Below, piece after piece: positions 672 to 57,282 of a DNA stretch of 64,000 nt. Numbering within the stretch: position 1 is the stretch's first letter; the number at the start of each line of letters is the position of its first letter. The DNA is taken from the NCBI GenBank assembly GCA_905178155.1, contig CAJINV010000005.1, positions 612,564 through 676,563 on the forward strand. Reading direction: 5' to 3'. The notes under the pieces are model-generated. The model saw nothing but the letters and a program-made list of their open reading frames with translations. It made no database searches and was not told the origin of the DNA. This DNA comes from Amoebophrya sp. A120 (Eukaryota > Protista > Dinoflagellata). Made by a program: the position numbers and the translations under genes.

Positions 672-3600
672 TCAACCTGGTCTGCTTAGCCTGCACACTC
701 TGCTGAAGTACACGATATCTTTGTTGTTCCAAAGGATACCGTGGTCGGAGGACATTAGCTGTGGATCGCTCAATCCCAGCTCCGCAAGCGCCGGGATACT
801 CACGGTGGGGAATACAACAGTGCTCTCTTCAACACCGCCGGATGGTGCGTCTTTCCCTTTGCATACTGTGGTCATAGCGTTGATACTGTCACCGGCAGTT
901 TCATCTGCCGGGCCTGGTGCTCCAGGAACAAGTGCTGCAACAGCAGGATTTATTTCCATCATCTCCACCTTTTCGACAGAACCAGAAGCCTCCTCGAGCA
1001 CCGGATGGACGATCAAGTCCTCTTCTTCTAGTTCCGACGACAGCCGCCGCCGCAATGCTTCGTCTCGTCCGTGAAATCCCCCGAAAGAAGGAGCTCCTCC
1101 TGCACGACCACTAGGAATGTGTATGTCCTCCTCTCTCTGCATGTGCTGCAAGCTGCTACTTCGCGTCCTCAGTCTCGATGTCGGACCAGAAACCTTGCTG
1201 TTCACGCAAACAGGTGGATCATGCTCGTCATCTTCTTTATTTCCAATGAGAGATTTTGTCTTGTCTGTCATTTGTGGCGCTAGCAGCACACCAGCAGTTG
1301 GGCGTCGTGCCGAGGATGGCACAATACAATTCGGCATGTTGAAGAACATCGTTTGTTGCTGCAGCGGTACTAGCAGCTCTCGACTAGTCCAGGAAGGAGG
1401 CGGCGGCGAGGGCCCGGTAGTGTCTTCTCGCAACAGGCCGCGACTGACGGGCACCGCAGGGTGCGACAGACGACCTACCGGCACACCAGAGCTAACCGGG
1501 GACGCAGCAGCGGCGAAGCCTGGCGGCCGGACGCTGGCAGTACCAAGCTGTAGGTGCGCGTTGAGAAGCTGAGATGATGAGGAAGAGGATGAAGTTGAAG
1601 AGTTGTTGTGTAATGTTTTTGTGTAGCAGTGGTCTTGTTTACATTTACTCCCGGCCCCGGCCGTCCCGCGATCATTGATGATCGTAAAGGCAGCAGATGG
1701 TCGCGGAACCAGAGAAAAGCGCCGCTGATGAAGATCTACCGGCGTCGTGCCTGCAGTAAAGCCGGGCAGTAGCAGCTGAGCGACATTTTCCTGCGGTCGT
1801 TTGTCTGCTGTCAAGAAACTTGCCGTAGAACCCGCGCGAGGCAAGGAGAGACGGCTCACCTGCCGAGGAAGGTTACCAAAAAATGCAGCGGAGGACAAAT
1901 TTTGCAGCAGCAAAGGCCTCTGCCGCTGCAACTGTGAAAATAGCACGTTATTTACTTCGTGATCTTCATCTTCCACGTGCGGGGGAACTGTAGCTCCTTG
2001 GTGCGCCTGCAGTTGCTCCCGAGTCTGTATGCGGCCAGCGGATTTGCTCCCTTGGAGAGTTGTTACAGCTCTGGTAACAGCTGGAGCCTCTGGCAGGACC
2101 TCCGATGGTATCATGTCACTCGTCGATGTGGTTCTCGTTGTTCTATTACCAGCTCCTGTTCCGCTTGCTTTTGGAAGGCCCATCGGCGAAAAGTGCTTCT
2201 GCAGATTATGCCCCGCAGGCGCAATGTTCTTAATGCGAGTCTTCGGCTCGAAAGCGGGCAACTTCTTAGTCAGGACATTCAGCTGCGCTGCTGATGTCGC
2301 TCTTGCAGATTGCAAGGTACTAGAAGGCATGACCTCCGCTAGTCCTACTTCTGCGGGACATTGCAGCCCTAGCTGCACTGGTGCGCGACGACAAGCCGTT
2401 GCAGCTTCTACTCCTTCCGCCCTCTGTTCTGCCGGGCCAGCCGGAGGCGGCTCACCGCTTCCGACGGTTGCGACGAGGCCCTTTGGTGCTCCTGCAGAAG
2501 AACACGCACTGGTCGGCACCGGTCGCGCTCCCAGCGTGCGCCGGAAAAACGTGCTGGAGCTCGATGGCTGCAAAAGCGGTGGTCGTTGTAGTTGCAACTT
2601 CCGGAAACCTCCGGTCAGCCCCGCCGAGAAGGCCCGCTCGCGGGTCGTCGATGACGAGGATGTGCTGGCGTTTTGGTTTCTTGGACGTCCAATTGCAGTT
2701 CCTGAGGAGGTCGAGGAGATGTTACATTGTGGGACTCCTCGCCCAGCAGCTATCTGCAAAGGGCGGTTCAAAAACTCGACTCTGCAGGAGGGTTTTGATT
2801 CAGATTTATTCCATTCGTGTCCATCATCTTCTCTTTCTGCACCAGTGCAGCTGCTGCAAGCTGCTGTGTCTTTTGTCGTGTGGGCGACAGAGTGCGGCGG
2901 CTCTGCAGGCCGTGCCGGTGCGTGATGTGCAGGACGCAGCACCGGACCAAGATTCTTGTCTTGGACATGTAAAAGTTGTGCAGGAGAACGCAACACGTGC
3001 GCGTCGTGGAACCCGGAGGCTACCGGTTTCATGAGCGGGTCAGACCCGTCAATGCTTCTTTCGTCGGCAGTGGAAGACGACGAAGCGGTGTTTTGTTCAT
3101 CTACAGGAAGAAGTTGAGGTTCTTCTTCAAAATCAGCTACTACATCTCGTTTTAGTTTCGTGACTCCGGCGGATCCACGTCGATCATTTCCAACGAGAAC
3201 AGCGGTGTCGTCGTGGTCGTCCCGCCCCTGGTAGTCGACCACTGCGTCATCCACTTCTATTTTGCCCAAGAGTTCCTCGTCCCCCTGGCTTCCTCGTAGA
3301 TGCAGATCCACAGTCGGACAGGAGGACGGACCACTGCCGCTACTCTCACTGTGACCGATGCGGCTTGCTGCCTCGACAATCTCCGGCGCACCTTGCTCAT
3401 CTTTATTATACTCCGCTACAACAGGACGAGGGATCACTGCCGGCGCTAGTTGTACTTCTTCTTGGTGTTGAACTTGAACATGGTGAGCATGATCATCATG
3501 CAACTTGCTCTTCTCACCCGTGACATCACCGCTTTCTTGCCCGCCCTCCGGCAGGATAGATTTTTCAGGCGTGTTGTTCATCTTTCCCGGACTTGTATGA

Positions 3601-4437
3601 AATGCAAAAGCATCGTACTAGTATAAATCGCATGACAAATTTCGTCAGCATGAGAAAGAAAATTTGTAATGGGGATTTGACTTGAGAAAGAAATTTGTAT
3701 TGCATGAATGCGATTAGTACGAGTACGATACTTTTGCACAGGATAACTTGGTCGGGGCCGTATCACGAGCCGTTTCAGGGGTGGGCTCAGGTTCAGCGCG
3801 GGCATCTTTCTATGGAAGCGTCAGGTTTCTTCAAATCGTCAAAGTTCAAATAATTTGTAATGCATAAAATGCGTGACCCGAGACACGTGCGTTGCAGAGC
3901 AGGCAAGTGAGGCCGATTGTAAGCCTGTTTGGGGTTACAGCTCGAGCTGCTAAAGTAGCATGAGAAAATCGCTCTTCTTTGCCTAAACAGCATGACAAAG
4001 TGGATTTAGGGACCACCGAAGTTTGTCTTGCGCCACTTAGAAACTGGGTTCCAACTGGCATCCATTTTATGCATGACAAATTATTTCAACTCTGTCGATT
4101 TCAACTCTGACACATCCATACTTTCTTGTGGCGGGGTAAAAGACCGTCTTCAAGGCGGGTGGCGGCAGCAGGACCGCCGGCACTGATGATGGGCAAAAGT
4201 ATCGCACTCGTACTAATTACAATTATGCATGACAAATCTTGCTCTTAAGGTAAAACAGCATGACAAGTTCCAGTTTTCATGCTGAGCAAATTTGTAATGC
4301 CATTTATACTAGTACGATACTTTTGCAATGCATAGTACTGATGATGGGACAACTACAGGTGATGCAGCTGCGTTCGGCGGAAGCAACTGATGCCGGACCA
4401 CCTGCTCCCGGTGGGGCAGCGGCGCGGGGGCAGGCAT
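672..4437 (-). CDS. Low-complexity hypothetical protein (~1,046 aa) interrupted by 3 introners
   Basis: ORF 672..3581 extends in frame to an ATG at 4437 (MPAPAPLPHREQ...LVIRPRPSPGKMNNTPE) after removing 3596-3750, 3811-4125 and 4194-4348; the remaining 3,141 nt is divisible by 3. A further 3' exon (374-570) via a GC-AG intron is possible but unproven. Confidence 0.7.
3596..3745. mobile_element. Introner family A (150 bp), TSD ACTTG
   Basis: ACTTG|TATGAAATGCAAAAGCATCGTACT...AGTACGATACTTTTGCACAGGATA|ACTTG; excision restores the frame. Confidence 0.92.
3811..4120. mobile_element. Introner family B (310 bp), TSD CTTTC
   Basis: CTTTC|TATGGAAGCGTCAG...CTGACACATCCATA|CTTTC; closely similar copies at 21075 and 27784. 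Confidence 0.92.
4194..4336. mobile_element. Introner family A in reverse orientation with an atypical 12-bp direct repeat
   Basis: Reverse-complement homolog of 3596-3745; flanked by ACTGATGATGGG at 4182-4193 and 4337-4348; left TAT terminus missing; removing 155 bp restores the frame. Confidence 0.85.
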
Positions 4438-5677: not shown

Positions 5678-6806
5678 TACTAAGTGGAAAAATGTCTGCA
5701 GCAAAAAAAATCAAAGTTTTTGGTAGGGCAGTTTGTGCCCTTCTCTTCTCGCCCGGACTGCAGCGCGCTGGTGAGCGCCGTGGCCTTCATGCTTGGGAAC
5801 TTGACCGAGGTGCTGTGCTCCATTCCTGCTGCGTCGTTTGGTCGAAGCTCCAGCGCGAGCTTGAAGGCCCCCTAGTAGTCAGCCCAAGCCTTAGTCCTCA
5901 CACTTCTCGTTCTGGAAGTAGTTCCTTTGGTCATGATGCTCCTGTCCAGCATGCCGCGAACCTCAGCCAGGTACTTGGGCGTGAAGCCCCTCCCGCCAAA
6001 AGTGGCAATTTGTAATGCAGGTCTCGCGTTACAAATGGCCTTTTCTTCTGACCCGTTCTGGGTCAGCTTTCTGGACCGCATCACAAATCTGAGCTCCTGA
6101 ATCGGCAGAATGCCGTGCTGTGAGGGTTCAGATTTGTGATGCAAAACGTGGCTCCGCGAAAAACGTCTGCACCTCGTCCAGTGAGGTCCCCAAGTGAGGT
6201 GCAGACGTTTTTCGCGGGAGGGGGGGAAAGTGGGGCCCATAGCCCGTGTTTGTCTGCGCCGCGAAAAACGTCTGCACCTCCGAGATCGGCCTCCAGATGA
6301 GGTGTCCTCGGACACCTCTTCGGAGTCGTCCCGAGTCGCGGACCTCCGGGGCGACAAATTGCGGCCGCCCTTTTCGCAGGGCCCCGACCTGTATCGAGCT
6401 CAATTTGCCGGCAAAAGCCTGCAACTTGAGCTCATCCCCGAGTCGACCTCCTCCGAGGCCGCGAGGTTTGAACAAAAAGCGAGTCTGTTCCTCAGCAAAT
6501 TCACCCCATTCCCAAACAAGATATGTACGCGGTAAATCGTCAGGAATCAGGAGGGGGTGTGGGAACTTGAAGAACTACAACTGCGAACCCGGGTGGACGA
6601 CGTCCACCGATACCGACGCACCGAGTCCCCCGGTGGCTGAGTTGTCTCCTCTGTTTCGTCCGCCGAGGCCTTGCCGGAATACCTGGCCTACCCATTCCCT
6701 TGATTTTGTTTCATTTTGAAAAAAAATAAACACACAAGCAGGCGCCCGACTATGTAGGATGCAAAAATTTTGATTTTTTTAGCTGCAGACATTTTTCAGC
6801 TTAGTA
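5678..6806. mobile_element. Intergenic non-autonomous DNA transposon (MITE-like, 1,129 bp), ~45-bp TIR, TSD CAGCT
   Basis: CAGCT|TACTAAGTGGAAAAATGTCTGCAGCAAAAAAAATCAAAGTTTTTG...CAAAAATTTTGATTTTTTTAGCTGCAGACATTTTTCAGCTTAGTA|CAGCT; GC-rich interior with several hairpins; no credible ORF. Confidence 0.9.
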
Positions 6807-8187: not shown

Positions 8188-8861
8188 CTGATACAGTTTT
8201 AGATTCAGTGACTAGATTGTTGATCACATAAATTGCTTTTGATCAGAAAGATGGTTTGCAAAACCAAAACATCACACATCCATGCTCTACAAAGAAGCTT
8301 TATTCGAATCGAATCTTATCTAACTTCTATGCTTGCACAGTATGAGTTGTGTCGAATAAGTGTTGTATAATTGATGTACCTTGTAGATCTCTTGCTTCTT
8401 TGGGCTCAGGGTCGACAGCTGCCGCACATCCCAGTCTGCGTAGGGCGGACGCTCCGGGGACTGCTCCGCTGGGTACTCCGAGTAAGTCGCGACGGATCGA
8501 CAAGTATACCACGCTCAGAGGATGTGAGAATTTACTTACACAGTCACGACAAGGTTGCATATTTTGGAGGCATTCGCTTTCATCTGTATACAGGACTGCG
8601 AATCGCCTCGGGCGTCGTCATTTCATGACCATCATGACGCCGGGGTGATTCGAATGCGACATCAACTCTGTAAATGTTTATACATACATCAACTTTCTTG
8701 CCCTACGGCGTTTCACTGTACCGTATTGCATGGAGGCGATGCAATTCCACGTGCACAACCGCGGTACTGACCGCTTCTAGTACAGCACTAAGCGCATGAT
8801 TCTGCCTCACAAGCGAACCGTCTCTGCCTTGTCACTGCACAGGACATCATACATTATCACA

Positions 8862-10635
8862 TCAGCTGAGTGGGCGATAACTAGAGAGCGCTGGATCGGC
8901 GGAACGTGTGCGTCCGCGGGCAGATTCCGTGACCACCTGAGTAATTGGGATTTTTGGTGATATTAAGAGGACGAAATGCAAACGTAGTTCATCAATATTG
9001 TAGGGCTACACGAAACCAATTTTTGTTTTGAAGATGAACCATACAGAAAGAACATATATATTACCGGTTGCCGACTAATTGGGAACCCGTTTTTTGCGGT
9101 CGTGTCCATTCCGTACCCGCCACTGCCGTAGTCGCGATTCAGCTCCGCCCGGTCTTCCTGCAGCACCGGCACGCGCGCGTCGCGCCTTTTGTTCGCCGGA
9201 TTCGTGCCCCACTCGTCCAGGTACACCGATTTTTTGTCGTCCTTGGACTTGGTCATGAAGAGGTTCCCGGCGGATTTGGGGCGCATCAGCTCCCGGGGCT
9301 GGAAGGTGCCGTCCAGGTTGTCGTACCCCTCCAGCTTCGGGTACTGGTTCTCGTAAATCGGGACCGGCGGCCCGTAGCTCGCCTTGCCCAGATTGTACAT
9401 TTGGTGCAGGGAGGTGATGTTGGGCCGGTGCACCGGCCGGGGGGTTTCCATCTGGGTTCGCACCTCCGGGTTGTTCAACTGCAGATCGATCATGGTAGTC
9501 GTCACCGGGTTATGAACTGCAAAAGTATCGTATTCATACTCGTATAAATGCATTACAAATTTTCTCAGCATGAGAAAGAAAATTTGTAATGCGGATTTAC
9601 CTTAAGGAAGAGATTTGTAATGCATGATTGCAATACGAGTACGATACTTTAGCACAGGATACGGGTTGTGGTACGTGTTCTTGTTCGCGTTCTCGTCAAA
9701 GTTGGCAAATCTCGGGTCGTCCTTGTATAACAGTGCACAACTCCCCCTCCCCCTCATTTGTAATGCAAAATACCCAAGTCACCCTTTGCCTCTTCGCAAG
9801 TTCTGGCTGCCCAAATAGCATTATCCTCTTGTACAAATTTGTTATACAAAACCGGCAGTCTTGCTGATGCTTGTATTGCCGTTCATGCTATACAAATGAG
9901 GGGGAGGGGAGTTGTGCACTGTTATACCTTGTAGTACTCCTTCATGAACTCCTTGTTGTACTTGCTATGCGGGGGCGCGGCCCGTGACTGCAAGTGCGGT
10001 TCCTCGACCACAACTGCTGGGTGGCCACTGTTCATCATTCCTGTGCTGGTCCGCGACTTGTAGTGCCCAACACCCCCCTTGCCGGACAGGTCGGCGTGCT
10101 TGTTCTGCTCGGAGGTCGGCGATGGCGCCATACCGGGCGGCGTCAGCGGTGGGGTCCCGGGACGGTGCTGGACAGCAGAGCTACCGCCTCCGATCATAGC
10201 ACCAGAAGTTGATTTCGAGGAAGTGCTGACTCCTTTGCCGATCTCGACCTGCTGTTCTGCCGCTCCGGGAGAGGTGACCACGGGCAAAGTGTCGACTTCC
10301 ATAGATACGTCGCCGGTCGTGGTAGCAGCTCCCTTCTTCTGCACCATCTTCGGTCGCAACGGGGCCGTCACGGGCCGCTTCTTGTGGTAAGTCGGCGCGA
10401 ACACCGCGGTTCTTGGCGGCTGGTCTGTCGCGGTGTGGACGATCTCGCTGTTGTGCATGTGGCGCTGGGGCCACTTCTGGCCCCCGGAGGTAGAAGATGT
10501 GGTCATCGTTGCGGTGCGCGGCCGCTGCGCTCGTGCACCGGAGGCCGGAGTTCTCGCGGACGGCTGGGACCGTGCGGAAATGGTCACCGGGGCCGCGGAA
10601 AAAGGCCGCGGGTTCACAGAGGGATTCAGATTCAT
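8862..10635 (-). CDS. Hypothetical protein; 2 introners plus 1 GT-AG intron
   Basis: ORF 9922..10737 joins ORF 8963..9571 through the exon DDPRFANFDENANKNTYHNP after removing both elements; GT-AG intron 8937-9064 leads to a stop at 8862. Start could be 10635 or 10737. Confidence 0.7.
9511..9661. mobile_element. Introner family A (151 bp), TSD CGGGT
   Basis: CGGGT|TATGAACTGCAAAAGTATCGTA...TACGATACTTTAGCACAGGATA|CGGGT. Confidence 0.92.
9726..9926. mobile_element. Introner family C (201 bp), TSD CCTTG
   Basis: CCTTG|TATAACAGTGCACAACTCCCCCTCCCCCTCATTTGTA...TACAAATGAGGGGGAGGGGAGTTGTGCACTGTTATA|CCTTG; ~36-bp TIR. Confidence 0.93.
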
Positions 10636-10736
10636 CCTTTCTTTCGATATGGAGGGCTGGGTTCTCTCCTCACTTTCACAACCACCAGCCCATCGGAGAT
10701 AGCAAATCAATTTGACAGAAGTTTGTTGTTTCACCA

Positions 10737-14384: not shown

Positions 14385-15705
14385 CTACTGATGCGCGGCC
14401 GCGACCACTCCACCGAGCGTCGGACCCGGACGGGTGGTCAACACCTGCCTCGAAGTTGGCTTGAACGCCGACAAGGCGCCAAACGCAGGCAGCCGCGCGG
14501 CCGCGGCACTCCCTCCGCTGCCTCCGCCGGACGAGGCGCCAGTTGCGTAGGTGGCGGAGGCGCTCGTGGTTTTGAAAAGCCCCCTCTTCGTACTGCTGCC
14601 CGCCGGTATAATGTGCGTCGAGGAAATGTTCATTTTTTGCACGGCACTGGGAACTACAGAGGAAGCCATCGACTGCTGCAGAAACTGCGCCGTAGGGCTG
14701 GAGCCACTGTTCTTGGCAGCTGCTCCTGTAGAAGTTGTGCCTGTTGTACAACTACTCGCCACCGTGGAGGTAATAATTCCCCCGGAAGTTGTAGATGAAA
14801 AGTCGTTGCTGTAGGTCGGCTTCCTGCCTGCCTTCCCCAGGCTGGACTGCGTCCGCGGCGGCGGCGACATCGCGTCCTCGGGGCCCTCCTCCTCCACGGG
14901 ACTGGGAGCGGCGCGCGGAACGTTGTGCTTCTTCCGCATGCGCACGGCCTCGGGCACACCGAGGGTTTGATGTTGATGCTGCTTCGCCAGCATTTGGTCC
15001 TTGATGGTAGCGGGACGAGGAGAGATTTTTACAGCATTGTGCTGCTGCTGCGCAAATTCCGCATTTGATGCTTGATTTCCGCTGTTACCGAACGCAAACA
15101 CCGGGGCTGCAGGGTTCGCGCTGCCGTGCTGCTGCGAGGAACTATGTGTCACCACTGGTGCAGCAGCCCCTGCTGCTGTTCTGACGGGAACTGCCACTCC
15201 TGGAGCAGCCAGACGACTCCCACTACTAGAAGCAGATGCCGCTCCCGCCCCGGCGCCGAGGCTCAAGCGGGTCAGCGGAGTTGCGAGGTGTGGTCCGGCT
15301 CCGGAACCACCGGATTTTGTTGCTGCGCTCGATGAAGAGGATACGACACTCGTCACCTTCGCACTGATGCTGGTCGCGCTGGAAGTGTTTGGGGCCAACA
15401 GTAGAGGTCGCGCGGACGGCAGCGCGGTCGGGCCGAGGGTCGGCGGTGGTGGGGCAGGCACGGTTTGCAGGCCGCTGATCCGCCTCGGCTTCAGGGACGC
15501 GTTGCGGAGGGGTGGGCCACCAGCACGGGTAGATTTTTCCTGTTGGGGCAAATGCTGCTGCTGAAAGGTTCTGAACGTCGGAACGGTCGCGTCGCGCTGC
15601 CTCGGTGGGACCATCACGGAAAAAGTACCCGAAATCCGCGGCCGTACCGACCGGGAACGAAACCCAAGAAGCCCCGCTCGCTGGACCTCGTGCTCGTCTT
15701 CAACC
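14385..15705 (-). CDS. Low-complexity S/A/G/P-rich exon; possibly the 3' part of the gene starting at 19227
   Basis: 410-aa ORF that stays open upstream to a CAG acceptor near 15706; I could not resolve its linkage to upstream exons. Confidence 0.55.
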
Positions 15706-16206
15706 TGATGCAGGATAATTTATTTTCTGCACGTTATCGTTATATATTCGCATGGGTTTGTAACGTTGCGTGTTCCTGTTTGTTGTTGATGCTGCACGAA
15801 ACGAAGAACCTGCTGTGGTCGTTTACCACGATGTCGTCACGACCGTTGCTCCTTTTCATGTGACAAAGAAAGCGATAAGTAACCTCCTTTCTACCGGGCT
15901 CAGAATCGCGGGCGGCGCGCGGGGCTCGGGCTGTCGAAGTTCCTTCCCGCGAATCATGGGCGTCCAGAAACCAGGCCGGTCTGCGAGTAAGCCTCTGGTC
16001 CCCGGGTGGACCGAGTAGGACGTTTGTGGCACCTACGTATGGAGAACGGAACGTTGATATTAAGAGAGTCATGGAAATCTTCTCGAATGAACTGACGCCT
16101 AGTTTCTCGAAACCGATGCCTACGTTACTTCGAATAAAAAAAAAGGACTGCAACAGCAGCGCATGAAAACATCAAGTAACGCCAGCACAATACGTGTACA
16201 AATTAC

Positions 16207-19200
16207 TTGCAGCTGCTGCTTGGTCGACTGGTCCGCCCCACTCCCCTTCGCTGCAATCATTTCACTGTTCTGCTGTTTTTTCGGCGGCTGAATGACGAAG
16301 GGCGCGACGACTTTCGGGACCGAAGCGGAAACTGTGCCTGTGTTGGTACCGCCCGCAGCCTTGCTTCCGGATGAACCTCCAGGGTTGGTGTTGACAATTT
16401 TTGCCGTGGAGCTGGAATTTGGCGGCGGGGACAGCAGCGACCTTTTCTTGTTCTGCACCAAGCTCGCCTCGTCGACATGAAGGCTGGACCTCGCGGGGAC
16501 TACCACCGCATTACAACTCTGCTCGGTGTTTGTTCCAGCAGCAGCCGCCTGGTCCTGCTGTTCAAACGGCGAGGACCGACTGCTGCTCGACTGCGACCCG
16601 GGCAAAACGGGCACTTCCATCTGCAAGAGCGAGGTTGCTGGCTGGAAAGAAGAAGAGCCGCTTCCTATTACAATGAAAAATGCCCCCATCCCCAAAGTTG
16701 CAATAATTTGTCATGCGAAGTTTCCAAATGAAAACTTTTTGTCATGCATGAAAGGAGTGTGAATCTCTCTAATGCAGAGTCTAGGCGTATACAGCATCGC
16801 TTGCATGACAAGGGCCGCTCTTGCTGGGATCTTTTGCAATACAAGTTTTTGCTATTCCCGATTGAAGATCTGTGATGCTGGTAGATGTAAGAGGGCGAGT
16901 GTTTCATTTGGAAAGGTTTGCAATACAAATGCTCCAAAGTTCAAGTTCTGCGGTGGGGGCACTTTTCATTGTCATACTTCCGTTGCGCTGGATCAGCGTT
17001 TGGTTCATTCCCAGCAGCGTGTTGGTCGGGGACAAACGACTCGACAAAGAGTTTTGGTTTTGCTGCTGCTGTTGCACCACCTCTTCGACGTGTTCTTGTT
17101 CGTCTGGTATGCTTTCCGAGCCGGGCAAAATGGTCCGTGTCGACGTGATTCCGTTATAATCCCCAAGGAGACTAGCACTCGATGTCATGGTCATGGAGGG
17201 TGGTCGACTGGCTAATATCTCGCCAGCGATATTAGAAGTGGTCCCGTTCGAATGGTTGTTGTTATTTGATGTTCCGTGCAGGTTCATCGCAGAATTGTTA
17301 CTGGTAGAGCTTGATTTTGACAAAACCATCTCGGAGCTGGGCTCGGTGCCGGAAGAAATCGTCTTCTGCATCTTCTGAAGGGGAACGAAGCCGTGCTTCG
17401 AACTGGTTTTCTGCTGCTGCTGCACTCTCAACATAGAGGAAGAGTTGTCTGGTGCTGGGTCGACCGACACTGAAGACGACTCCGAGTGGTGACCTCCGGA
17501 GGAAGAAAGCGACAAAATCCGGCTCATTCCGGAGGCTTGTCTAGCGCCAGTCGCAACTACTCCATGCTGCAGCAATTTAGGATGTCTATTTTTAGTACTG
17601 TGCTTGTTGTTTCCTGGCTTGCTCGTGTTGAAAAAGCTGGTTTGATGTGCAGGAGCACCTCCTCCTATTGGTCTACTACTGCTCGAGGAGGAACTATGGC
17701 GCTCTCAAGTGTTACATTCTCAACTGTTACATGATTTGTCATGCAAAACTACAATCATCATCATCATCATGTAGTGGACACCCGCACCCAGCGCCACAGG
17801 TCAAGGATCCCCTCCCCGGGGGGGTGGGCGAGGAAGCACTTTCGGCGACCTCAACATACAAAAGCCGAGCGCTACCACGGCAAGTCGCCCCAATAAAAGT
17901 GCCAACCAGTCGGGAGCTACCCACCACACCTGATCAGTACAGCCCGGCCAGCTAGCCGAGCGCGACAGCCCAACATACAGAACGATCCAGGACCCGACCC
18001 ATTTTACGCCTTAAGTTTTTGTTCTCACGGAAGAGACGACGTACCCCTTTGGGCTACTTAAGGGGCGAGACTCTCCCTTAAGCCGCAACCCCACCCGGAC
18101 AGGGGAGGCTGGACCATTTGCGCCTTACCTGCGGCACGGACGAAAAAGGCAAGTGCCGCGAACCGGAGATGTCAAACCATTGGCCAGTTGTTTGTCACTG
18201 CTGACTGGCAACCCACCTGGGGCACAGCGACAACTTAACGGCTTAGTTTCTGCGTGGCGGTCAGAGTGCAACTCCTTGACTTATTCTGCAACAGAAGCAA
18301 AGGGTGGGAGGGGGGACGGGGGGCGTAAGCCGGAGTCGCGACGGAGCTTACCTTGAGCTTACCTTGAGCCTACAATCAGAATCTACACAATCAAGCTTCT
18401 TAGCATGACAAATTCTTTGAGGGCCAAACAGGCTCAGACTCTGTGCCAAATCTGTCATGAAAGACGCGCAAGGTCACCCCGTTCACTTTTTCCATTCTTG
18501 CATCACAAATTCATGTACATGTATATGTAACAGTTGAGAATATGACAGTTGAGAACGCCATAGGAACTGCTGCTGTGTTCTACGCCAGTCAAAACACTTG
18601 TTGGTGGGTTGAGCAACCGGGCTATGAAAGCCTCAGGTTGGAAATCCTCAAAGTGGAAATAATTTGTAATGCAAAAAAACGACCCCAGTTGAAGCGGCAT
18701 TTGTAGTCGGCGCATGACAAAATTCCCGGGCCTTTAAAGCATGTCTGTCATGCAGGTTAAGGCAAAGGGGTGCCCTTCTGTCGTGCTCGGCAGCACTCCA
18801 ATTCTTCACCCCTAGCAGGACAATGGTTGGCTTCCATTATGTCCTCTGCAATACAGTCTTTTTTGCCTTGCATATCATGCATCACAAATTGTTTCCATTT
18901 TGAGGATTTCCATTCTGAGGCTGTCATACGAGCACCGACGCTCGTAGTGCCACCTGCTCCACCCACTCCGCCGTATGCCCCGCCGAGCTGCATGCCAACG
19001 CGGCCCTCATAGTACAGGTTGCCCCGGGATTTTGGGGGCGAGGTGAAATACCGCGACTTCAGGTGCTTCGCAGGGACTACCTGGTGCTGTTCCTCTGAGG
19101 AGTTGTTGGGGTTAGTCGCGGAAGTAGAACCACCTATAGCACCAGCATTTTTATCCTTCGACGTCGCGTGAACCGTGCGGGTTCTACGTCGCTTCGCTTG

Positions 19201-19227: not shown

Positions 19228-19406
19228 CGCAAACTCCAACCAGCTTTGGATTACCTGGATATAAATTTTCTGCAATCGGATCATGCGGACGCTTATGTAC
19301 ACGACCTTTATAGTTACATCCTTATTCTGGTTTTAGCTCATATACTAGCTTATGATGTCAGAAGTAAAAATGTGTTTTTGAACAATTTATCAGAGTGAGC
19401 TGGGTT

Positions 19407-40955: not shown

Positions 40956-42960
40956 TCACCCTTGCTCATTCTCCTGGTCACGACCCTCGTCCTCGGCAAA
41001 ATCATCTCCCTCCAGAGCATCAACATCCTCATCGTCGTCCCCCTGCTCGTCGTCTTCTCGCTGGGCTTCGAACTGCAACAAGGCTAGCTCTATCAAATGC
41101 AAAAATGTCTGGGTCTGGAACGTTGCCGGGTTTATCATGCATATTTTGCATGACCCAGGACGTCTGCAATGCACGACCTAGCATCCCAGATTTTTAGAGG
41201 GCTTCCTGATCCTGATGCCTACTCCGCATGACAAATGCCCTCCCCGCGTAGCACAAACTAGACTCCTTTTGCTTGTCATGCAGTACAGATTTTTTCAGAG
41301 TCCAAAGTTAGCATCACAAGTTCCAACCTTCCAGACCCAGACATTTTTGCAGTTGATAAGCTCCGCGTCGGCCTCATCTTCTTCCAGAACGTCGTCACTG
41401 AAGCCGTCAAGAGAGCCTGCGGCAGCGCGGCCAGAACCAGATGTCGTCGACAGAGAGGTTTCATCTCGTATGTTCCTCCCCTCCTCACCGTCAACATGTT
41501 GCAGCGTTGAGATGATACTGTTCATGTTCTGCGACCTACTTCCCAGGAACCTTTCCGAAGACACTTTTTCCCCCGTCTGCCTTAGGTCCTCCAGATCTGG
41601 ACCTAGTTGGAACGCTGGATGCACGAATTCGGTTTTCTCCGCACGGAGGATGACTTGGCTTCGGTTGTTTTTCGCTCCGCTTATCTCCAGTTGGTCAACT
41701 TGGTGCCGGCCGTGGTAGGTGACACGGTCCTGTGAAGACCCAGATCCGAAAGCGGCGGCGCCTTCGCATTGTTCCCTGTCGTGATCCTGACCATCGGTAT
41801 AAACACCTTGTTGCGTCACAGGATCCAGATCCGAAACTGCACTTGTTGCTCCCGATTCTTCAATAAAGCTAGTGGTTCCGATGTTATGCACGAAGTACAC
41901 CTTGCTCTTCCTTTCGTTTTGCGTGGCCACCGGTCGCGGCACCGTGTATACCGGCTTCTTGCCCTTCTTGTTCGCGAAATCCTGCGGCGCGATCTCGCCA
42001 CGGTACCGCAGCAGAATTCCGTCCGTGGCGTTGACGAAGTCGAAGAAGGATCCCTTGACCCGATTTGCGCAGAAGAACCGATCCGCGTTGCAGGCGCACT
42101 GCGCCAGACAGCGTTCGCCGCAGTAGCCCTTTTCCTGCCACTTTTTGAACATGCCTAAGTGCTTCATCCGCTGCCCCTCGATCATCGCCAGCGACGCCGT
42201 TAATAACGCCCGCCCCGCGTTTCGCCAGTCCGTGGAATGCTTCGGCCGGAGCTCGTGGGGAATCACTTTCGTCGGATACATATCAACTGTAAAAATGTCT
42301 GGGTCTGGGAAATTCTGACTCTTGTCATGCACGTTTTGCATAAGCCATGATGTCTGTGATGCATACACTAGCAATACAGATTTTTAGAGGGCTTCGTGAT
42401 GCCTATTCCGAATGACAAATGCCTTCTCAGCGTAGCAAAAACTGCATTCCCTTTGGTACTCATGCAATACAGATTTTTTTGGAATCCAACTACAGCATCA
42501 CAAGTTGCATTCTTCCAGACCCAGACATTTTTACATTTGATAATACACCGGGTCATCCAGGTCCTTGCCATGGTCGTGGTTCCCGCGGTATCAAATGTAA
42601 AAATGTCTGGGTCTGGAAGAATACAAACTTGTGATGCTAAATCTGGATCCTGAAACAATTTGTGTTGCATGAGGGTCAAAGTCAAAAGCTGTCCACTTTT
42701 GACCAAGTTGGGAGTGAGTTTGTCATGCAGAATAGGCATGATACAGATCTCACAGAATCTGTCATGCTAGATCCTGCATTCCAGACCTCATGCGTCATGT
42801 TGAACCTGCATGACAAATCTTGCAATCTTCCAGACCCAGACATTTTTGCAATCCATACGCGGTACCCGATCGGCCGCGGGTGGTACTTCTTGTTGCGGTG
42901 CAGCGTCGGTACCTTCACGTACTTCGCCTGCGCCGGCACATACGAACTGCTCGACGCCAT
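40956..42960 (-). CDS. Hypothetical protein (396 aa, Cys cluster, acidic tail); 3 introners
   Basis: MASSSSY...PIGYR|GNHDHGKDLDDPVY|PTKVIP...DAEL|ALLQFEAQ...; 1,191 nt remain after excision. Confidence 0.75.
41091..41358. mobile_element. Introner family F (268 bp), TSD AGCTC
   Basis: F-type TIRs and an exact TSD. Confidence 0.93.
42281..42542. mobile_element. Introner family F (262 bp), TSD ATACA
   Basis: F-type TIRs and an exact TSD. Confidence 0.93.
42589..42857. mobile_element. Introner family F (269 bp; opposite orientation to 42281), TSD CGCGG
   Basis: F-type TIRs; interior colinear with 19969-20230. Confidence 0.93.
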
Positions 42961-43817: not shown

Positions 43818-46800
43818 TCACTTTTCCCCAACTGCGGATGACGAGCCACCGCTACTCGTCGTTGTTCCCGACGAGTGATTCCTATCCAGGTGCTGGCAGT
43901 TGCTGTGCCCGCGCCTCCTAGTCCTCGTTCTCCTTGGTTTATTCCGTCCGGAATTCATTGCCACTTCCCACCCGATGTTCAGGGCTGCTGCGGCCACGTA
44001 AAAACACGACAACGAGCGCAGCGTGCTCTCGGTGGCAAGCTGCACGGCGTGGGCGTTCTTCTTGGCCGCGGCTTTTGTGGCTGCTTTCGACATTGGAGGG
44101 GCTGCGGTAGTTGTTGTGGGACCATCTTCACTGGAAATTTTCGTTGCACCGGAGGCAGAAGCTTTGCTTCCTCCAGAGCCTGTCCCTGTGTTGCCACCGT
44201 AAGTAGTAGGAGCACTCCCAGAAGATAGATCCTCGTCCTCTGCAGGTACTTCTTGCTGCGCCATCTGAAACAGTGAGATCACCTGATTTGCAATCAAGGG
44301 CCCGACCACGTAGTTCATAGCCTCGTCAATGATGTTAAATGTTGCGAGGGAATGCAGTTTTTGTTGCGTGGACGAGGATGCGAGCACCTGCACTCCGCCC
44401 ATGGTCGCCTGCATCAAAAGAAGCAGAACCAACGCGGTCGTGGTAGGGGGAGAGTTGAACGCCTTTTCCAATAGGGCGCGGGGGTTGTAATGATGCTTTT
44501 CTCTGTGCTGATCGTCTCCTTCGTGGTCGTTTTTGAGCGAATTCAGGAGTTCTGTGACTTGAAATACATCCGCATCATCCAGAAACGACGTCAAAAATTC
44601 ATCATCTTCTTGCGCGCCGCCGCTAGTATTGCTGCCGAGGGTTGTGTCGCTTTCGTTGGTTGTCCCCAACTTCTTTCTGTCCGTTGAAAAGGCCTGTCCT
44701 CTATCGTCGTTCTCGTTCATCGCGCTTTTCATTGAAAGACCCTCTCTGGAGCTTCTACTGTCGTGAGGAACAGCACCAAAAGACCGCCCCTGGAGAATCG
44801 TACTAGTGATGCCCAGTGGCGGAAGGCGTTGCAAACGAGGTGATTTGTGTTCTACGGATTTTGCTCCCGCCGACGACGTTTCGCTTTCCCCACTAGAGTC
44901 GCCACGACCAGCCACGGCGCCGCTGTTCCGCTTCCTATCATTTCGTGACGCTGCTAGAAACCTCATTGCAGCAGGCGAGATGCGGGGCTGCAGGTCACGC
45001 TGGTCCTGTTCCGAGGAAAACAACCCTTGGAGTCTCTGATTCTGTCTCGGGTCGTCGGTTTTTTTCACCAAAATTTGCGGCAACACAGTGTAAAAAGTTT
45101 GCACGGCACAGAACATGGCCAGCTGCGGACCCGCACGCATCACAACACCATCCCGCTTCATGCACTTCCTGACCCGGCGAGCAGTGCTTTTCAGAAGTGA
45201 CGCGGCCTTTCTTGATGTTGTTGCGCTTCTGGTCGTGGCACTGTCTGCGGTAGGTGCCGCTGAAGACGACATCGCAGCGTCCAGTTCTTCTTGGCCCTCG
45301 CTATCTGGTGTCCTACCACGCTGCATTGCGGCAGGACAGCCATCGGATGTCGCAGCGTCTTGACCTTCCTCAGTGTGTGCCGGTTTCGTCGGACCGTCGC
45401 CTTTATTCCGCTCCAGCAGCCGAAACAGCCAGGGCTGCACCACACTTGCCGCAAGCACCGCACCAAACAACGGCCCCATCGTGACCAAAAACGCGGTGAG
45501 ATCCTTCGGGAGCCCCGCGCCCTTGTGACACAGGTGCGAGGCGGTGTTGGGGGCCAGGTTGCTTTGTGCGGAAGTGCCGAGGGAACACATCATCCACTGC
45601 GTCAAAAGGAGGATCTGCTGCTTGCGGTCTTTCGATTTACTCGCAGACGAATGGGGTTCCTCTTCCTCGTTTATTTGCCCTCGCCGCAAGTGCTCATGAA
45701 CTTCGTCACCAACGTCGGCCACAAGAGTGGCCGCGAGGTCATGATCAACTTCTGTGTCCTCTGCCGCATTGCTCTTGCCAGCACTGGCTGTGGAACAAGC
45801 ATCCGTAGTCCTAAATTTGGTGGACATTGTGCGCCGCTGATTTGTCGTTTCTTGCCCTCGCCCGCGCCACTCGGCCGACGACTCCGACCCGAAGTCAGCG
45901 CCGCACAGTTCTTCCTCGGGCCCGCCGAATAAGAATGTCTGGCTGCCAAAGCAAGTTCCAGGAGAACTCCCCGCGGCCGGGGAGGAGCAGGCGGCGGTCG
46001 TTGCGGGTGTGTAGGTGTTCGCCTTAATGTCCTTTTCATAGCTTGATACAGATGCCGGTGTGTTTGTACTGTTTTCGCTCTGCCTGCCGGATCGAAATGC
46101 ACCGTGGCACAAACTCCCTCCGCCAAGGGCCAAGGCAGTGGTGACGATAAACACGTTTGCCAGGACGACATTTTTGATCCAGCTGTCCGGACTTCCACAG
46201 GCAGCCACGTACTGGCCCAGGCCCGGGATCGCGTTTGTGAACAGTGGCAACTTCGCCAGCGCCGCCGCTTGCGCCTGCTCCTCAGACATTGCAGCTTCCT
46301 GGGATGCTGATGAAGCCGGATCATTCACGTCGTTCCCTACTAGGTCGTCATGATCATCAGCATCGACCATCATATTAACCACGTCTAGATCCTCAGTCTG
46401 ATCTGCTTCACCAGCCACTGCTCGTCCTGCCGATTCTTCTCTATCACTTTCTAGCAAACAGCTGGTCGTGTCACTGCTGACCCTCGAGGTCGAGGCCACA
46501 CTACCGGGCAAGGAGGGCGGGATCGAAAACAATTCCTTGGTGATCGTTCCAATTAACGGTGCCATAAAACCTTGGACCGCACCGCAAAGCCAGTTATTCA
46601 GCCAGTAGGACACAAGCACCTTGTCGAGGTTTCCCTCCTCCCATCCCGCCTCGAGCCCGAGGAAAATTATGACTGCGTCAACTTACCCAAACTCAACTTA
46701 CCCAAAAACTTTATTAGCGATTTTTCATAGCTAGAAGGCATGCTGATTTGTAATGCCTAAAAGTAGTAGCTATGGTTAGCTAGATAGAACTTCATATAGC

Positions 46801-48410
46801 TAATTAAGACCGTTTTCACGCGTGTGTAGAACCCGCAACCTCCGCTACCAACGATCACGGATTCCCTTCCGCTGCCAACGATCGCGGAGGCTGAGCTGCG
46901 TTGCCACCGCGTTGCGACACCATTCACAAGCTTCATACCTTGGCTGGATTTATACACGAAGTGATAGCATGCGACAGGTATTGAGATATTCTATCATTTA
47001 TGCCATTGAATTGAAAAAAATCCGAGGCATCTTTTTTGTCTAATCACGTTGGTAGGGTGATTTTTTGCCAATCCAAAACCTAGCATCGGGGAGGGGGATC
47101 ACTCATCCCCCTGGTCCATGCCTAAAAGTATACTGCTTCCCCGATGCTATGCCCCATGCAAAAGCAATATAATCTGATTTGATAGCATCAACTCGAAGGA
47201 GTTTTATCATGAGACACAGCATCGTTGGGGAGGGGATCCGTGATCGTTGGTAGCGGAGGTTGCGCCTTCTACACACGCCGGAAAACGTCCTTTTCGAAAT
47301 AGCTATTTACCTCAACTAGTAAGTGTAGACTGAGCGGCGCCGGATAGTAGGTTCGGACTCTAAGTAGCTAATTAAAGTGGTTAGTTAAATTTTTGGGTAA
47401 GTTGAGTTTGGGTAAGTTGACGCAGGCATAAAAATGAGCGCCACACTGATAACCGCGGTCGTGATGGACACTTTGCGCAAAAGCTGGATTTGTCTTTGGA
47501 GGTCCTGACGATGGGCTTCGGCTTCCGTGCTCGCGTGATCGTTTCCATCTTCATCGTTTCTGTCGCTTTCGCGAAGGTTCTGTCTTGCCTCGACCAATTC
47601 CCCGTACAAGTGACTGCCAATCACGGACACAAGCCCGCCCATGGAAGTTTTCCATCCGACGAGAAAGTCGTTCTGTGTCAACGGCGTCGGCGGCCCCATG
47701 CCTTCGCTCTTCGCGTCCGCGGCGGCGCCAGCCGTGAGAACTTTGGCAATTTTGGGTAACAGCAGCTGGTTTACCGTTCCGTCGGGAAGGCAGATGAGGC
47801 CCTGCATCATGCCCAAGAGAATCAGAGTTTGCGTCTTCTTGCTAATTTTCGGGAAGTGGACCCGCGAAAGTTTTTTCCGCAACATCGAGGTTGCGCATTG
47901 TCTAACAGCTCTGGTTCCGTCTCCGAGGCTTTCCATGCAGGCGCCGATTTTGTCGAGTAGCTGGTATCCATCTTCTTCCACCACCTGTGAAGTCGTGTGC
48001 TCGTCTGCAGGACGCGGAACAGCAGCAGTATCGGGATGACGATCATGACCCACTCTGGCACTACAACTCGCAGTTGTGCTACTGCTAGTACTCCCTTCAA
48101 GCAACGGACGGCGCAGCGAGGAAGCGAATCCAGACGCTGCTGTACTAGAACACGTCTTTTCGTTATTGCCAGACCGCGAGAATGATGAAGTTGCTACTCG
48201 GAGAGTCGCAAATTGGCTCGCCAATCTGTCTGCGGGGTCTATTTTTTCCGTGTCGTCCGCCACCGAATGGACGAGTGGAGCCTTGTGCAGTAAGCTTCTA
48301 CGCTTGAGCTTCCTCCCGAAACTCGATCGAGTAAAAACCGACACCCAGCAGCTGAAAAGCGCAACGGCAACGCGCCGACGAGAAGACGAAGAGGCTCGCA
48401 TGTTGTTCAT
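43818..48410 (-). CDS. Multi-pass membrane protein (~1,274 aa), possibly a divergent MFS-like transporter with long low-complexity loops
   Basis: ORFs 47385..48410 and 43818..46619 fuse (SVALIF|LGLEAGW...LVSYW) after removing 768 bp; about 10-12 hydrophobic segments. The MFS assignment is an inference. Confidence 0.6.
46668..47430. mobile_element. Introner family I (763 bp), TSD AAAAT
   Basis: TATGACTGCGTCAACTTACCCAAACTCAACTTACCCAAAAA...TTTTTGGGTAAGTTGAGTTTGGGTAAGTTGACGCAGGCATA; a second ~57-bp inverted pair at ~46812-46868 and ~47230-47286. Confidence 0.92.
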
Positions 48411-51400: not shown

Positions 51401-51603
51401 TGATTGGCGAAAGACGAACAGAAGATCGATAAAACCTGGTGCAGGAATAAAAGTTAGAAACTCTTTCTCATAAAATTGCGAATCAAAGTTAATAGATACG
51501 GTAGGTGGAGCGACATCATCTTCGAGCACGACTGAAAATGTTTCTTCCGAACAGGAGAATATATTCCTGTTGCAATTATCCGGCGTAGAAGATCGTCCCT
51601 CTG

Positions 51604-54513: not shown

Positions 54514-57282
54514 TTATTGCGCAGTTGCTATCGCGTAGCGGTAGTTGACATTATTCGAACTATCACGCACCTCTAGAAGCTGTACCCCGTCGATATCCAT
54601 ATCACTAGGACACCGATCCTCAGTTTTTTTGTGCTCTGTCCTCATCATATGCGTAGCTTCGCTTTCCTTTTTGTAGTAGTTGCATGAAGGTTCTTTTAGT
54701 ACGTGCGCACCAGTAGGACAAGGACTTCTAGCAGTTGCATGCGCGAATCCGATTTCTTTTCGCAGTGTAGGTCCTCCAACATGCTGGAGGAGATCTTCTG
54801 TTCTGGAAGAACGAGGTTCATCATTCGACACATCAGTGTAAGCTGCGGAGTGGTTCCTGCTCTTTTTCGTTGCAGCACCGACATGCAGCAGTTGCAAAAA
54901 CCGGTCGGCAACTGGACGTGCGAGCTTTTTATCCCATGAAAAAAGCGTTACAGTTACGCATTTGTTGGAGTTTCTGCATCACACATTTTCTCTGTGTGTC
55001 AGAGAAAACTTGTAATGCAAAGTAGATCCTAAGGGAAAATACGTAGGAAACGAGGCTCGCAAGCATTTCCTGCGTGACAAAGGTTGTCTGTCTTGCGGCT
55101 CCTGCAACACAATGTGTGACTGTAACATTTTTTTCTTGCGATACTTTTCTTTGTGAGCCCAGTCGGCTTCGAACTTCTGCCTGAGCTCGTTTTCCTCCCT
55201 CTCCTCTTCCAACAACATATCCTGTGCAAAAATGTCTGGGTCTGGAAACTTGTGATGCAAGTCTGTGAACCGTGGGCGCACTACAATATGCAGCCAAGCA
55301 TGACAAGTTTTTGCACGTGCCATGTGCTTCGTTTTCCGCATGGCAAACTGCGTTTTTGCATGACAGGCAGGAGGCCCCGCTCCTGCTGCTTACGCATCAC
55401 AGATCCAAGAGTCATGCCAGACAAGCATGACAAGTCCTGCATTCTTCCAGACCCAGATACTTTTGCAATGCATACAGCACGAATTTCAGCAATTCCCGGA
55501 CCGTGTTTCGCCTTTGCGCGGTCCTAAACTGCGCCATCGCGAGCTCTTCCCGGCTTCTTTTCTCCTTTCTTTTCCCCACAGAACTCCTCCAGCACCGAAC
55601 GGTTTTGCCCATCGAGTTCAGATATGGATTGCAAATATGTCTCAGTCTGGAAACTTGTAATGCTCAAAGTGGATGATAGACGCACTGCAATACGCGGCAA
55701 CCATGCATGACAAATTTTTTGGCTGCCATGTCTTACGTATTCCGCATGGCATGGCAAACTGCGTTTTTGCATGACAGGTAGGAGGGCTTTTTCCTCCATA
55801 TGCAACACAGATTCTCGAGTCATGCCAGACAAGCATGACAAACCTGCATTCTTTTTCTTGCAGACCCAGACATTTTTGCATTTGATATCAGATACCAGAA
55901 CGTCAACGCTGTCCTCAGGTGTTCCGCGTTCTGCTTCTCGGTTATGGTTTGCTTCCGCCAGCACTTTAAAATAAATTCCCCGAGAAACTTCTTCCGGAAG
56001 AACTTCCTGGCCGTGTCGTTCTGGATCTTTGTTTCCGGTCTGGCATGCAGCACCGTGTAATCTCGTTGCCAGCGGAGGAAAAACGGGCGGAGGATGAAGT
56101 CCAGTTCGTGCTGGTCCAAAGACGCTTCAAACTGCTTCCTGCGCGTCACGCGATGTCTCCAGAGAAAGAAGCTCCGCTTTTGCAGACCAGGGAAGCGAGT
56201 GTTCCTCGTAAAAGCGTTTAGCTTCAATTCCGTGCTGGTCCGCCAGTCGCGCTTTTTCCTCGCCGCGGCAAACCAGATGGGCACGGTGCGCTGTTTTTTT
56301 CGAAGAGACACGGACTCCGCTAACTGGTCCGTAAGCTCGCGAAGCTGCTGGCGGCGAAGGACGCGAAGCTTCAGGAGAAACAGTACCTGTGTGAAGAGAA
56401 GAAGTACTTACAACTTCCGCTACAGAGGTGGTGGAGTTTACTTTTTAATACCCCGTGCTTGATGTAGATTGGAAATGTAAATGATTTCCTCCGACAAGGA
56501 CAAGCATCTTCGAGTAATATTCAAAAGTTGTTTTCTCCTAACTGTACCTTGCACAACAACTTGCGCACATACTGTCGCCTGGGCCGCACCCACCGCAGGT
56601 AAATGCGATCTCGTGCACTGTGCCACGCCTGCCAGGACCGCTGCAGTAAGTTGCGCAGGGCCCGCAGCTCCAGAATTTTCTCCTGCTCGTTCCTCGTTGT
56701 TTGACTGCTCCTCACGGCGGCTCTCCAGCAATCGCGGAACACGAAGCGCAGCTTCGCTCTCTGCGCAAACTGGTACGCTTTGATTTTCAAAACAGAAATC
56801 GCCGCCTCGCGCTGCTGGAATGCGTACCAGCTCCTCACCGCGTTCAAAACTTTGCGGTGCTCGCGGAACCGGCAGGCGAGGGTGAACGATTTCCAACTAC
56901 GGAACTCCTCCTGCAGCACCCGCGCGCGGTGCAGCCCCTTCAACACGCAGCTGGCTTCAAACAGCTTCCGTTTCTGGATCGCGTATTGCTTCAACCCGGT
57001 GAGGAAGCACGACCGGAGAAACTCCTTCAGCTGCCCCTTCTCCCTCTTCCGTCGAAGCGCGGTGAAGGCGCGCAGGTTTTTCTGCTGCGAAGCGTTTTTC
57101 CGCCAGCGGTGGAAGGTTTGGGCCTGCTGCTTTCGCTCGAACGTTCTCGCGACATTCTTCTCGGACGTTTCCAACTTGGCCTCCCGCTTCACGCGGTTCG
57201 ACCACGCGCGAATCACGCGGAGAAGTAGAAAAGACGACCATACGCCGTCGACCGCGAAAAGGAACAGATCCTGGCCCAGCAT
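54514..57282 (-). CDS. Sfi1-like Trp-periodic basic helical-repeat protein; 3 introners plus a GT-AG intron (ends uncertain)
   Basis: Repeated LxxxFxxW-type units (FHRWRK, FRSWKS, VRSWYA, FLWRHR, FLRWQR); frames join after removing the elements at 55623, 55218 and 54930 and the intron ~56387-56547. Similar sequence at 52915-53367 may be further exons. Confidence 0.65.
54930..55143. mobile_element. Introner family J (214 bp), TSD CTTTT
   Basis: TATCCCATGAAAAAAGCGTTACAGTTACGCATT...AATGTGTGACTGTAACATTTTTTTCTTGCGATA; the join gives HKEK|LARPVADRFLQLL. Confidence 0.88.
55218..55474. mobile_element. Introner with F-type ends (257 bp), TSD CAACA/CAGCA
   Basis: TATCCTGTGCAAAAATGTCTGGGTCTGGAA...TTCCAGACCCAGATACTTTTGCAATGCATA. 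Confidence 0.9.
55623..55887. mobile_element. Introner with F-type ends (265 bp), TSD TCAGA
   Basis: Interior similar to 55218-55474; the join gives FWYL|NSMGKT. Confidence 0.9.

What the first reader, a model, noticed from the sequence alone, without database searches (positions are those of the whole stretch)
3596..55887. Positional grammar of the termini: TAT-N7-AAAA versus TATG-N6-TCA
Seen: positions 1-3 are TAT (TAC in the MITE). Positions 4-8 vary even between the two ends of one copy (TATCAAATG, TATGGATTG, TATCCTGTG). From position 11, families A, D, F, G, J and the MITE read AAAA (often AAAAAYGTC), while B, E and I read TCA. Inference: a bipartite end (cleavage tip plus binding box) typical of cut-and-paste transposons, with at least two lineages; tip pairing need not be perfect. 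From memory, TAY..RTA termini are listed for the IS3EU superfamily, though with 6-bp TSDs, so that link is tentative.
Basis: partly seen in the sequence, partly recalled or inferred. Interest (0 to 1): 0.7.

Follow-up and report, generated by a model that had tools for sequence, protein, structure and literature searches.

The report
Known introner ends of Amoebophrya A120
These repeat ends belong to short elements, likely transposon-derived, that interrupt genes of the marine parasite Amoebophrya and are missing from its transcript-like contigs and annotated proteins; the main end pattern was published in 2021, and only minor end types and a shared inner motif may be new.

Summary
A window ORF is 100% identical to an Amoebophrya sp. 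A120 protein. Farhat et al. 2021 describe A120 introner ends as TAT, seven less-conserved bases, then at least three As. All 12 elements within two annotated genes are absent from the proteins, three TCA-type among them. Transcript-like contigs skip four elements. Removing an element plus one 5-bp duplication gives the best reading frame at 20 of 27 window sites and 65 of 84 coding-like sites elsewhere. The duplication is 5 bp in 241 of 348 pairs and 6 bp in 1, so IS3EU membership fails that test. Not found in the paper's text: TCA and CACA box classes, a subterminal motif GCATNA[C/G]AA shared by all classes (argues against separate machineries), and a decayed intron that keeps TAT tips without the box. 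No autonomous partner was found in about 0.69 Mb.

The parts
3596..3745 (.). Introner, AAAA class, 150 bp, TSD ACTTG
   Evidence: one of 3 junctions in a restored 1057-aa minus-strand frame
3811..4120 (.). Introner, TCA class, 310 bp, TSD CTTTC
4185..4334 (.). AAAA-class copy whose left tip lacks TAT but keeps the AAAA box; boundary inferred
5678..6806 (.). TAC-ended element, 1129 bp, TSD CAGCT, likely in a 3' untranslated region; skipped in contigs leaving 3 extra bases
   Evidence: no Pfam hit in the 6 of 15 ORFs scanned
8505..8879 (.). Diverged TCA-class element, TSD with 1 mismatch; least certain
   Evidence: no copy in loci
9511..9661 (.). Introner, AAAA class, TSD CGGGT
   Evidence: together with 9726 net-exact skip in X1/X2 contigs
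9726..9926 (.). Introner, CACA class, TSD CCTTG
16666..16976 (.). Introner, AAAA class, TSD CTTCC, in kinesin gene
   Evidence: contig joint 16660 to 16977 = element plus one TSD; absent from P0003
17695..18562 (.). Introner, TCA class, 868 bp, TSD GGAAC
   Evidence: absent from P0003; contig piece stops at 17688
18623..18928 (.). Introner, TCA class, TSD with 1 mismatch
   Evidence: absent from P0003
19969..20230 (.). Introner, AAAA class (commonest family), TSD CTGCG
   Evidence: absent from P0003; hairpin z -11.2
20301..20579 (.). Introner, AAAA class, TSD with 1 mismatch
   Evidence: absent from P0003; cut at offset 2-5 of the TSD
20727..21058 (.). Decayed TAT..ATA non-canonical intron without the position 11-14 box; flanking 5-mers match at 3 of 5
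   Evidence: inferred from P0003; hairpin weak, z -1.66
21075..21384 (.). Introner, TCA class, TSD TAGGC
   Evidence: absent from P0003; hairpin z -9.6
21432..21588 (.). Introner, AAAA class, TSD AAGAC
   Evidence: absent from P0003
21741..22016 (.). Introner, AAAA class, TSD with 1 mismatch
   Evidence: absent from P0003; cut at offset 1-5
24490..24623 (.). Older AAAA-class introner missed by my scans, TSD with 1 mismatch
   Evidence: intron of P0001; cut at offset 3-5
24866..25108 (.). Introner, CACA class, TSD GGTCC
   Evidence: absent from P0001; A25 orthologue P0002 aligns across the site
25419..25976 (.). Introner, AAAA class, 558 bp, TSD CGCAA
   Evidence: absent from P0001
26086..26348 (.). 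Introner, AAAA class (one end has a 1-base shorter tip), TSD CGCGA
   Evidence: absent from P0001
26387..26667 (.). Introner, AAAA class, TSD GCGTT
   Evidence: absent from P0001
27784..28090 (.). Introner, TCA class, TSD TTTTT
   Evidence: frame restored
41091..41358 (.). Introner, AAAA class, TSD AGCTC
   Evidence: in restored 408-aa frame
42281..42542 (.). Introner, AAAA class, TSD ATACA
42589..42857 (.). Introner, AAAA class, TSD CGCGG
46668..47430 (.). Introner, TCA class, 763 bp, TSD AAAAT
   Evidence: restores a 1318-aa frame
54930..55143 (.). Introner, AAAA class, TSD CTTTT
55218..55474 (.). Introner, AAAA class, TSD with 1 mismatch
55623..55887 (.). Introner, AAAA class, TSD TCAGA
14388..22543 (-). 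Host kinesin gene (P0003, 1327 aa) holding 8 recognisable introners, 1 decayed one and 5 GT-AG introns
23403..26736 (-). Host gene (P0001, 610 aa, Amoebophrya sp. A120) holding 5 introners

Best explanation
These are the ends of Amoebophrya A120 introners: short inverted-repeat elements with a 5-bp target duplication that sit inside genes, are absent from annotated proteins and transcript-like contigs, and were likely spread by an unidentified cut-and-paste enzyme. Shown: the anatomy, insertion in either orientation at nearly random 5-mers, and removal of the element plus one duplication from the coding sequence. Inferred at DNA level: an integrase-related DDE transposase acting in trans cuts at the TA tip and binds the 11-14 box and the subterminal GCATNA[C/G]AA repeats, with positions 4-10 as a loosely specified spacer. 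Inferred at RNA level: the inverted repeats fold into a long hairpin that brings the two duplications together, and the splicing machinery cuts within them, set by the TAT tip and not by GT-AG. Three imperfect duplications allow cuts at offsets 2-5, 1-5 and 3-5, so a common cut at offset 3-5 would fit all three.
For: Organism: 100% identity to an A120 protein. Published end grammar identical for the AAAA class. P0001 residues 1-249 match the element-free frame at 100% with no gaps across 4 elements; P0003 326-843 matches at 99.8% with no gaps across 3. Junction peptides are verbatim at 9 of the 12 sites in these two genes; the other 3 are explained by TSD mismatches or a neighbouring intron. 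X1/X2 contigs: exact skip at 16666, net-exact skip of 9511 plus 9726. Frame test best at 20 of 27 and 65 of 84. Orientation relative to the gene 30 same, 24 opposite. No 5'/3' asymmetry of tip or box in 65 oriented copies. 201 distinct TSDs in 279 elements; AG|G proto-splice site in 1 of 65. Hairpins z -9.6 and -11.2.
Against: No transposase was found here, and Farhat et al. found none in A120 and argued against general transposase-mediated movement. The protein evidence is from gene models, not from reads I inspected. X1/X2 are only guessed to be RNA by the tool and come from one sample; they do skip a GT-AG intron at 22279-22437. The TAC element is skipped with 3 extra bases left, so removal is not always exact. 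A cruder frame test on loci was weak: 128 versus 100 and 100 of 207. The decayed intron has little hairpin (z -1.66). No binding or cleavage was tested.
Confidence: 0.9

Rival explanations
1. The 11-14 box is a splicing signal and not a transposase box: read at the 3' end, AAAA is a U-tract at a fixed distance from the cut, and the TCA class reads YTGA(C), like a branch point; the subterminal motif about 40 bases in (A-T-N-A-C) could also be a branch site.
For: The box is the best-matched part of the two ends after the tip. The nearest subterminal copy lies 30-49 bases from the end in one orientation at 293 of 431 ends that have one within 90 bases. U1 was not detected in A120, so unusual signals are plausible. 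Branch-point consensus is recalled, not from a call.
Against: Conservation is equal at sense-5' and sense-3' ends (3 versus 2 deviations at 11-13 in 65 copies), although this set is mostly young copies. The decayed intron 20727-21058 has neither box nor subterminal motif yet is removed in the gene model (one case). AAAA, TCA and CACA give no single RNA consensus.
Confidence: 0.25
2. The elements are non-autonomous IS3EU/GingerRoot transposons.
For: IS3EU always ends TA..TA (PMC10045372) and fungal IS3EU ends TAYGG..CCRTA (PMC12730594); several TCA-class ends read TATGG.
Against: IS3EU duplications are usually 6 bp; here 241 of 348 pairs have 5 bp and 1 has 6 bp. No transposase was found to place.
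Confidence: 0.12
3. The elements spread without a transposase, for example by reinsertion of the excised hairpin RNA or DNA, and the end pattern is inherited from a few founders.
For: Farhat et al. found no transposase in A120. Tips form a limited vocabulary: 120 hexamers in 558 ends, one of them 139 times.
Against: A fixed 5-bp duplication at diverse targets points to a staggered-cutting enzyme (established knowledge). The box is more concordant than the rest of the inverted repeat (15 of 399 versus 200 of 1330 mismatches), which descent alone does not predict.
Confidence: 0.15

Closest known systems
Amoebophrya A120 introner elements (Farhat et al. 2021, PMC7789003; read: section 11 in full, passages of other sections, supplement legends and Table S7; figures not seen)
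   Same: Same organism; inverted repeats, 3-5-nt direct repeats, non-canonical introns, ends TAT + 7 variable bases + at least 3 A; 29,850 such introns in 1,954 families reported.
   Different: Nothing in kind. The text I saw does not mention TCA or CACA boxes or the subterminal motif (no hit for GCATG or subterminal); the logos in Fig. 3 and Fig. S25, which I could not see, may show them.
A120 introner family 38 (Gozashti et al. 2025, PMC12130899; read: passages, and term searches in 2 supplements)
   Same: TIR-flanked A120 introner with ORFs similar to Copia/Gypsy elements, lacking Ginger termini and TSDs; a candidate for the kind of partner sought.
   Different: Its termini and TSD are not given in the text I saw, so a link to these ends is untested.
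IS3EU/GingerRoot DNA transposons (PMC10045372, PMC12730594; passages)
   Same: TA..TA termini.
   Different: 6-bp duplications; transposase not shown here.
Non-canonical TIR/TSD introns of Fritillaria borealis and euglenids; Micromonas introners (review PMC11282704; passages)
   Same: MITE-like origin, TSD at the junctions, end-joining hairpin in euglenids.
   Different: Micromonas uses 3-bp TSDs and canonical sites, Fritillaria mostly AG-AC/AG-AT; here the TSD carries no splice consensus.

Membership tests
Amoebophrya A120 introner elements | Lies in the A120 genome | tested here: met
   window ORF 100% identical to a protein named Amoebophrya sp. A120
Amoebophrya A120 introner elements | Terminal inverted repeats beginning TAT, 7 variable bases, then 3 or more A | tested here: met
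   33 of 52 window ends AAA at 11-13; the TCA and CACA classes depart from the A-run
Amoebophrya A120 introner elements | 3-5-nt direct repeat at the exon-intron boundary | tested here: met
   5 bp in 241 of 348 pairs
Amoebophrya A120 introner elements | Removed from mRNA with non-canonical sites | tested here: met
   12 of 12 elements in two genes absent from annotated proteins; skips in X1/X2 contigs; no raw-read junction seen
Amoebophrya A120 introner elements | Repeated in families | tested here: met
   9 of 11 window elements tested have copies in the loci at 80-97%; 279 elements in 25 clusters
MITE (non-autonomous TIR DNA transposon) | Short, TIR, TSD, no transposase | tested here: met
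   median 262 bp; no transposase Pfam hit in the ORFs scanned
MITE (non-autonomous TIR DNA transposon) | Mobilised by a cognate autonomous element | tested here: inconclusive
   none in about 0.69 Mb; longest real element 1129 bp; whole genome not held
IS3EU/GingerRoot | TA..TA termini | tested here: met
IS3EU/GingerRoot | TSD usually 6 bp | tested here: not met
   1 of 348 pairs
IS3EU/GingerRoot | DDE transposase of the IS3EU/GingerRoot clade | not testable with these tools
   no partner protein found and no whole genome to search
Canonical U2 introns | GT..AG ends | tested here: not met
   exact removal gives GT-AG in only 1 of 65 oriented copies

The most novel reading that the evidence does not exclude
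A120 introners come from an undescribed integrase-related transposon lineage (TA..TA ends, 5-bp duplication, one shared subterminal motif, at least three box variants) whose end does double duty. The TA tip is read by a U1-less spliceosome as an N|TA donor on whichever strand is transcribed, the acceptor is set by distance from the opposite tip, and the 11-14 box serves only the transposase. Imperfect duplications would then map the cut genome-wide and make the open question of Amoebophrya splicing testable by computation.
Probability: 0.25. Interest if true: 0.65.

Novelty: already known. Interest (0 to 1): 0.2.

Why it matters
As stated, the finding repeats a published description, so it adds little. 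The system behind it is an open problem: how a genome in which U1 was not detected removes tens of thousands of introns without fixed splice dinucleotides, and what moves them. The extras here (box classes, shared subterminal motif, cut offsets from imperfect duplications, a box-less decayed intron) suggest cheap genome-wide tests of which end features serve splicing and which serve transposition.

Tried and rejected
No whole genome is held, so genome-wide logos were replaced by 153 loci (626,589 bases, overlapping, chosen by one family's end); those listed in the call's table all come from one assembly. No listed run is on record as an RNA holder. Raw RNA run X8 covered 2 of 30 bins and only a related element end: not used. 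Only one read-laying result exists, so raw-read or further contig junctions for TCA-class copies are lacking. Partner search: no TAT-ended element over 1104 bp in the loci except one 6197-bp pair that I judged false because both ends are internal sequence; no transposase or integrase Pfam hit in 106 loci ORFs of 260 aa or more, 6 ORFs of the TAC element or 30 of 115 window ORFs; loci not searchable by handle; no match in viral contigs. No annotated protein was found for the 672-3581 gene, so removal of the degenerate 4185 copy is untested. No earlier scan notes. Gozashti Dataset S2 gave no row under Amoebophrya, IS3EU or Ginger. A splice consensus in the TSD was sought and not found. Literature: 5 searches; Roy et al. 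2023 was seen only as a citation.
Full report
What is there. The window is eukaryotic, about 50% G+C, and its long ORFs lie on the minus strand. A scan for exact 5-bp direct repeats around inverted ends, with no assumption about end sequence, gave 26 pairs; 18 begin TAT or TAC at both ends, against 0-4 pairs in each of 10 shuffles. Relaxed scans brought the list to 27 elements of 150-1129 bp. Two older ones appeared later from gene models.

The end pattern. In 26 complete copies the two ends differ 7-14 times at each of positions 4-8 and 0-1 times at 11-14. A pattern scan of metagenome contigs returned 153 loci. They hold 279 TA-ended elements in 25 clusters; the family-weighted information is 1.8-2.0 bits at 1-3, 0.1-0.6 at 4-10 and 0.85-1.3 at 11-13. 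Without the family used as the pattern, end-to-end mismatches are 260 of 665 at 4-8, 15 of 399 at 11-13 and 200 of 1330 at 15-24. Anchoring on positions 15 onward gave 229 pairs, 199 with TA at both tips, and the same profile, though positions 8-9 are well kept in two families. There is a third box, CACA, and TATG also starts 105 of 484 AAA-type ends.

What it is. A window ORF is identical to an Amoebophrya sp. A120 protein. Farhat et al. 2021 (PMC7789003) report that more than 60% of A120 introns are non-canonical and that repeated ones, introner elements, have inverted and direct repeats. [quoted passage not shown] That is the first half of the finding's title.

They behave as introns. Removing each element plus one duplication gave the longest open minus-strand frame at 20 of 27 sites, and at least 120 open bases on both sides at 26 of 27, against 14 and 16 for cuts shifted by 1 or 2 bases; 3 of 27 stay open if retained. 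In the loci, 84 of 229 sites looked coding and 65 of these scored best with that removal; a cruder version was weak (128 versus 100 and 100 of 207). Annotated P0001 matches the element-free frame at 100% over 249 residues and 4 elements, and the A25 orthologue aligns across the 24866 site. Kinesin P0003 lacks all 8 recognisable elements in its gene, 3 of them TCA-type. These are gene models. Contigs of X1 and X2 (one sample, RNA guessed by the tool, but they skip a GT-AG intron) join 16660 to 16977, exactly element plus duplication. They leave the predicted 59 bases between 9505 and 9927, stop at 17688 as expected if the 17695 element is skipped, and skip the TAC element leaving 3 extra bases.

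How it likely works. Copies lie in both orientations relative to the gene (30 versus 24). Tip and box are equally kept at the sense-5' and sense-3' ends, and the duplication has no splice consensus (AG|G in 1 of 65; 201 different 5-mers in 279). So the signal for removal must lie in the symmetric element (inference). Two young copies fold into long hairpins (z -9.6, -11.2). Three imperfect duplications limit the cut to offsets 2-5, 1-5 and 3-5. A decayed intron at 20727-21058 keeps TAT at both tips but has no box, no subterminal motif and little hairpin. This single case suggests that the tip matters for splicing and the box for movement. The fixed 5-bp duplication implies a staggered-cutting enzyme; integrase-family enzymes often leave 5 bp (recalled). 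Gozashti et al. 2025 report a TIR-flanked A120 introner family with Copia/Gypsy-like ORFs, a lead I could not tie to these ends.

Lineages. GCAT[G/T/C]A[C/G]AA occurs in 235 of 242 AAA-class, 14 of 14 TCA-class, 6 of 7 CAC-class and 16 of 16 other elements, at 8-11 per kb against 1.2 per kb outside detected elements. In the window, 65 of 73 copies of the related CAT[G/T/C]ACAA lie in the 9.2 kb of elements. A shared motif argues for one superfamily with box variants more than for unrelated machineries (inference). I did not find this motif or the TCA/CACA boxes in the main text of Farhat et al. or by five searches, but I could not see that paper's logos.

IS3EU. Its termini are TA..TA and its duplications usually 6 bp. 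Pairing ends by inverted repeat alone gave 5 bp in 241 of 348 and 6 bp in 1. Membership is not supported; a related enzyme remains possible. No autonomous element was found in about 0.69 Mb of a genome of about 115 Mb, which says little. Farhat et al. found no transposase in A120.

Verdict. Real, correctly described, already known; interest 0.2. The mover and the splicing mechanism remain open, and the side observations give direct tests.

Noticed in passing
window 5678-6806: The TAC-ended element is skipped in X1/X2 contigs from 5673 to 6805. On the minus strand the cut falls 2 bases inside the element (at C-T-A) and 4 bases into the second duplication, although a GT donor is available 3 bases upstream.
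   Followed up: partly
loci elements, positions 4-8: End-to-end mismatches at 4-8 are mostly transversions (326 versus 154 transitions), unlike positions 15-26 (188 versus 213), so the hairpin would tend to have an open loop just below the tip. Unexplained; counts are not independent.
   Followed up: no
window 16666-16976, 9726-9926, 24866-25108: Some tips (TATGACAA, TATTACAA, TATGACAG) resemble the subterminal motif CATGACAA, so tip and inner repeat may be versions of one binding word.
   Followed up: no
window 4180-4350: One tip of this copy is replaced by a stretch that repeats the flank at the other end (a 14-base direct repeat with 1 mismatch), while the AAAA box stays in register.
   Followed up: partly
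window 14388-22543: All 5 canonical introns of the kinesin gene can be read as starting GTA and ending YAG; the introner tip TA resembles this donor without its G.
   Followed up: no
window 63255-63530: A further degraded element end of the commonest family lies outside the finding's coordinates; no matching duplication found.
   Followed up: partly
window 60857-61366 (-): Glyoxalase/bleomycin-resistance-like domain (Pfam PF00903).
   Followed up: no
L073, L015, L016, L008: Loci with introners also hold conserved host genes: RNA polymerase largest subunit, SNF2 helicase, C-5 DNA methylase, ubiquitin E1.
   Followed up: no
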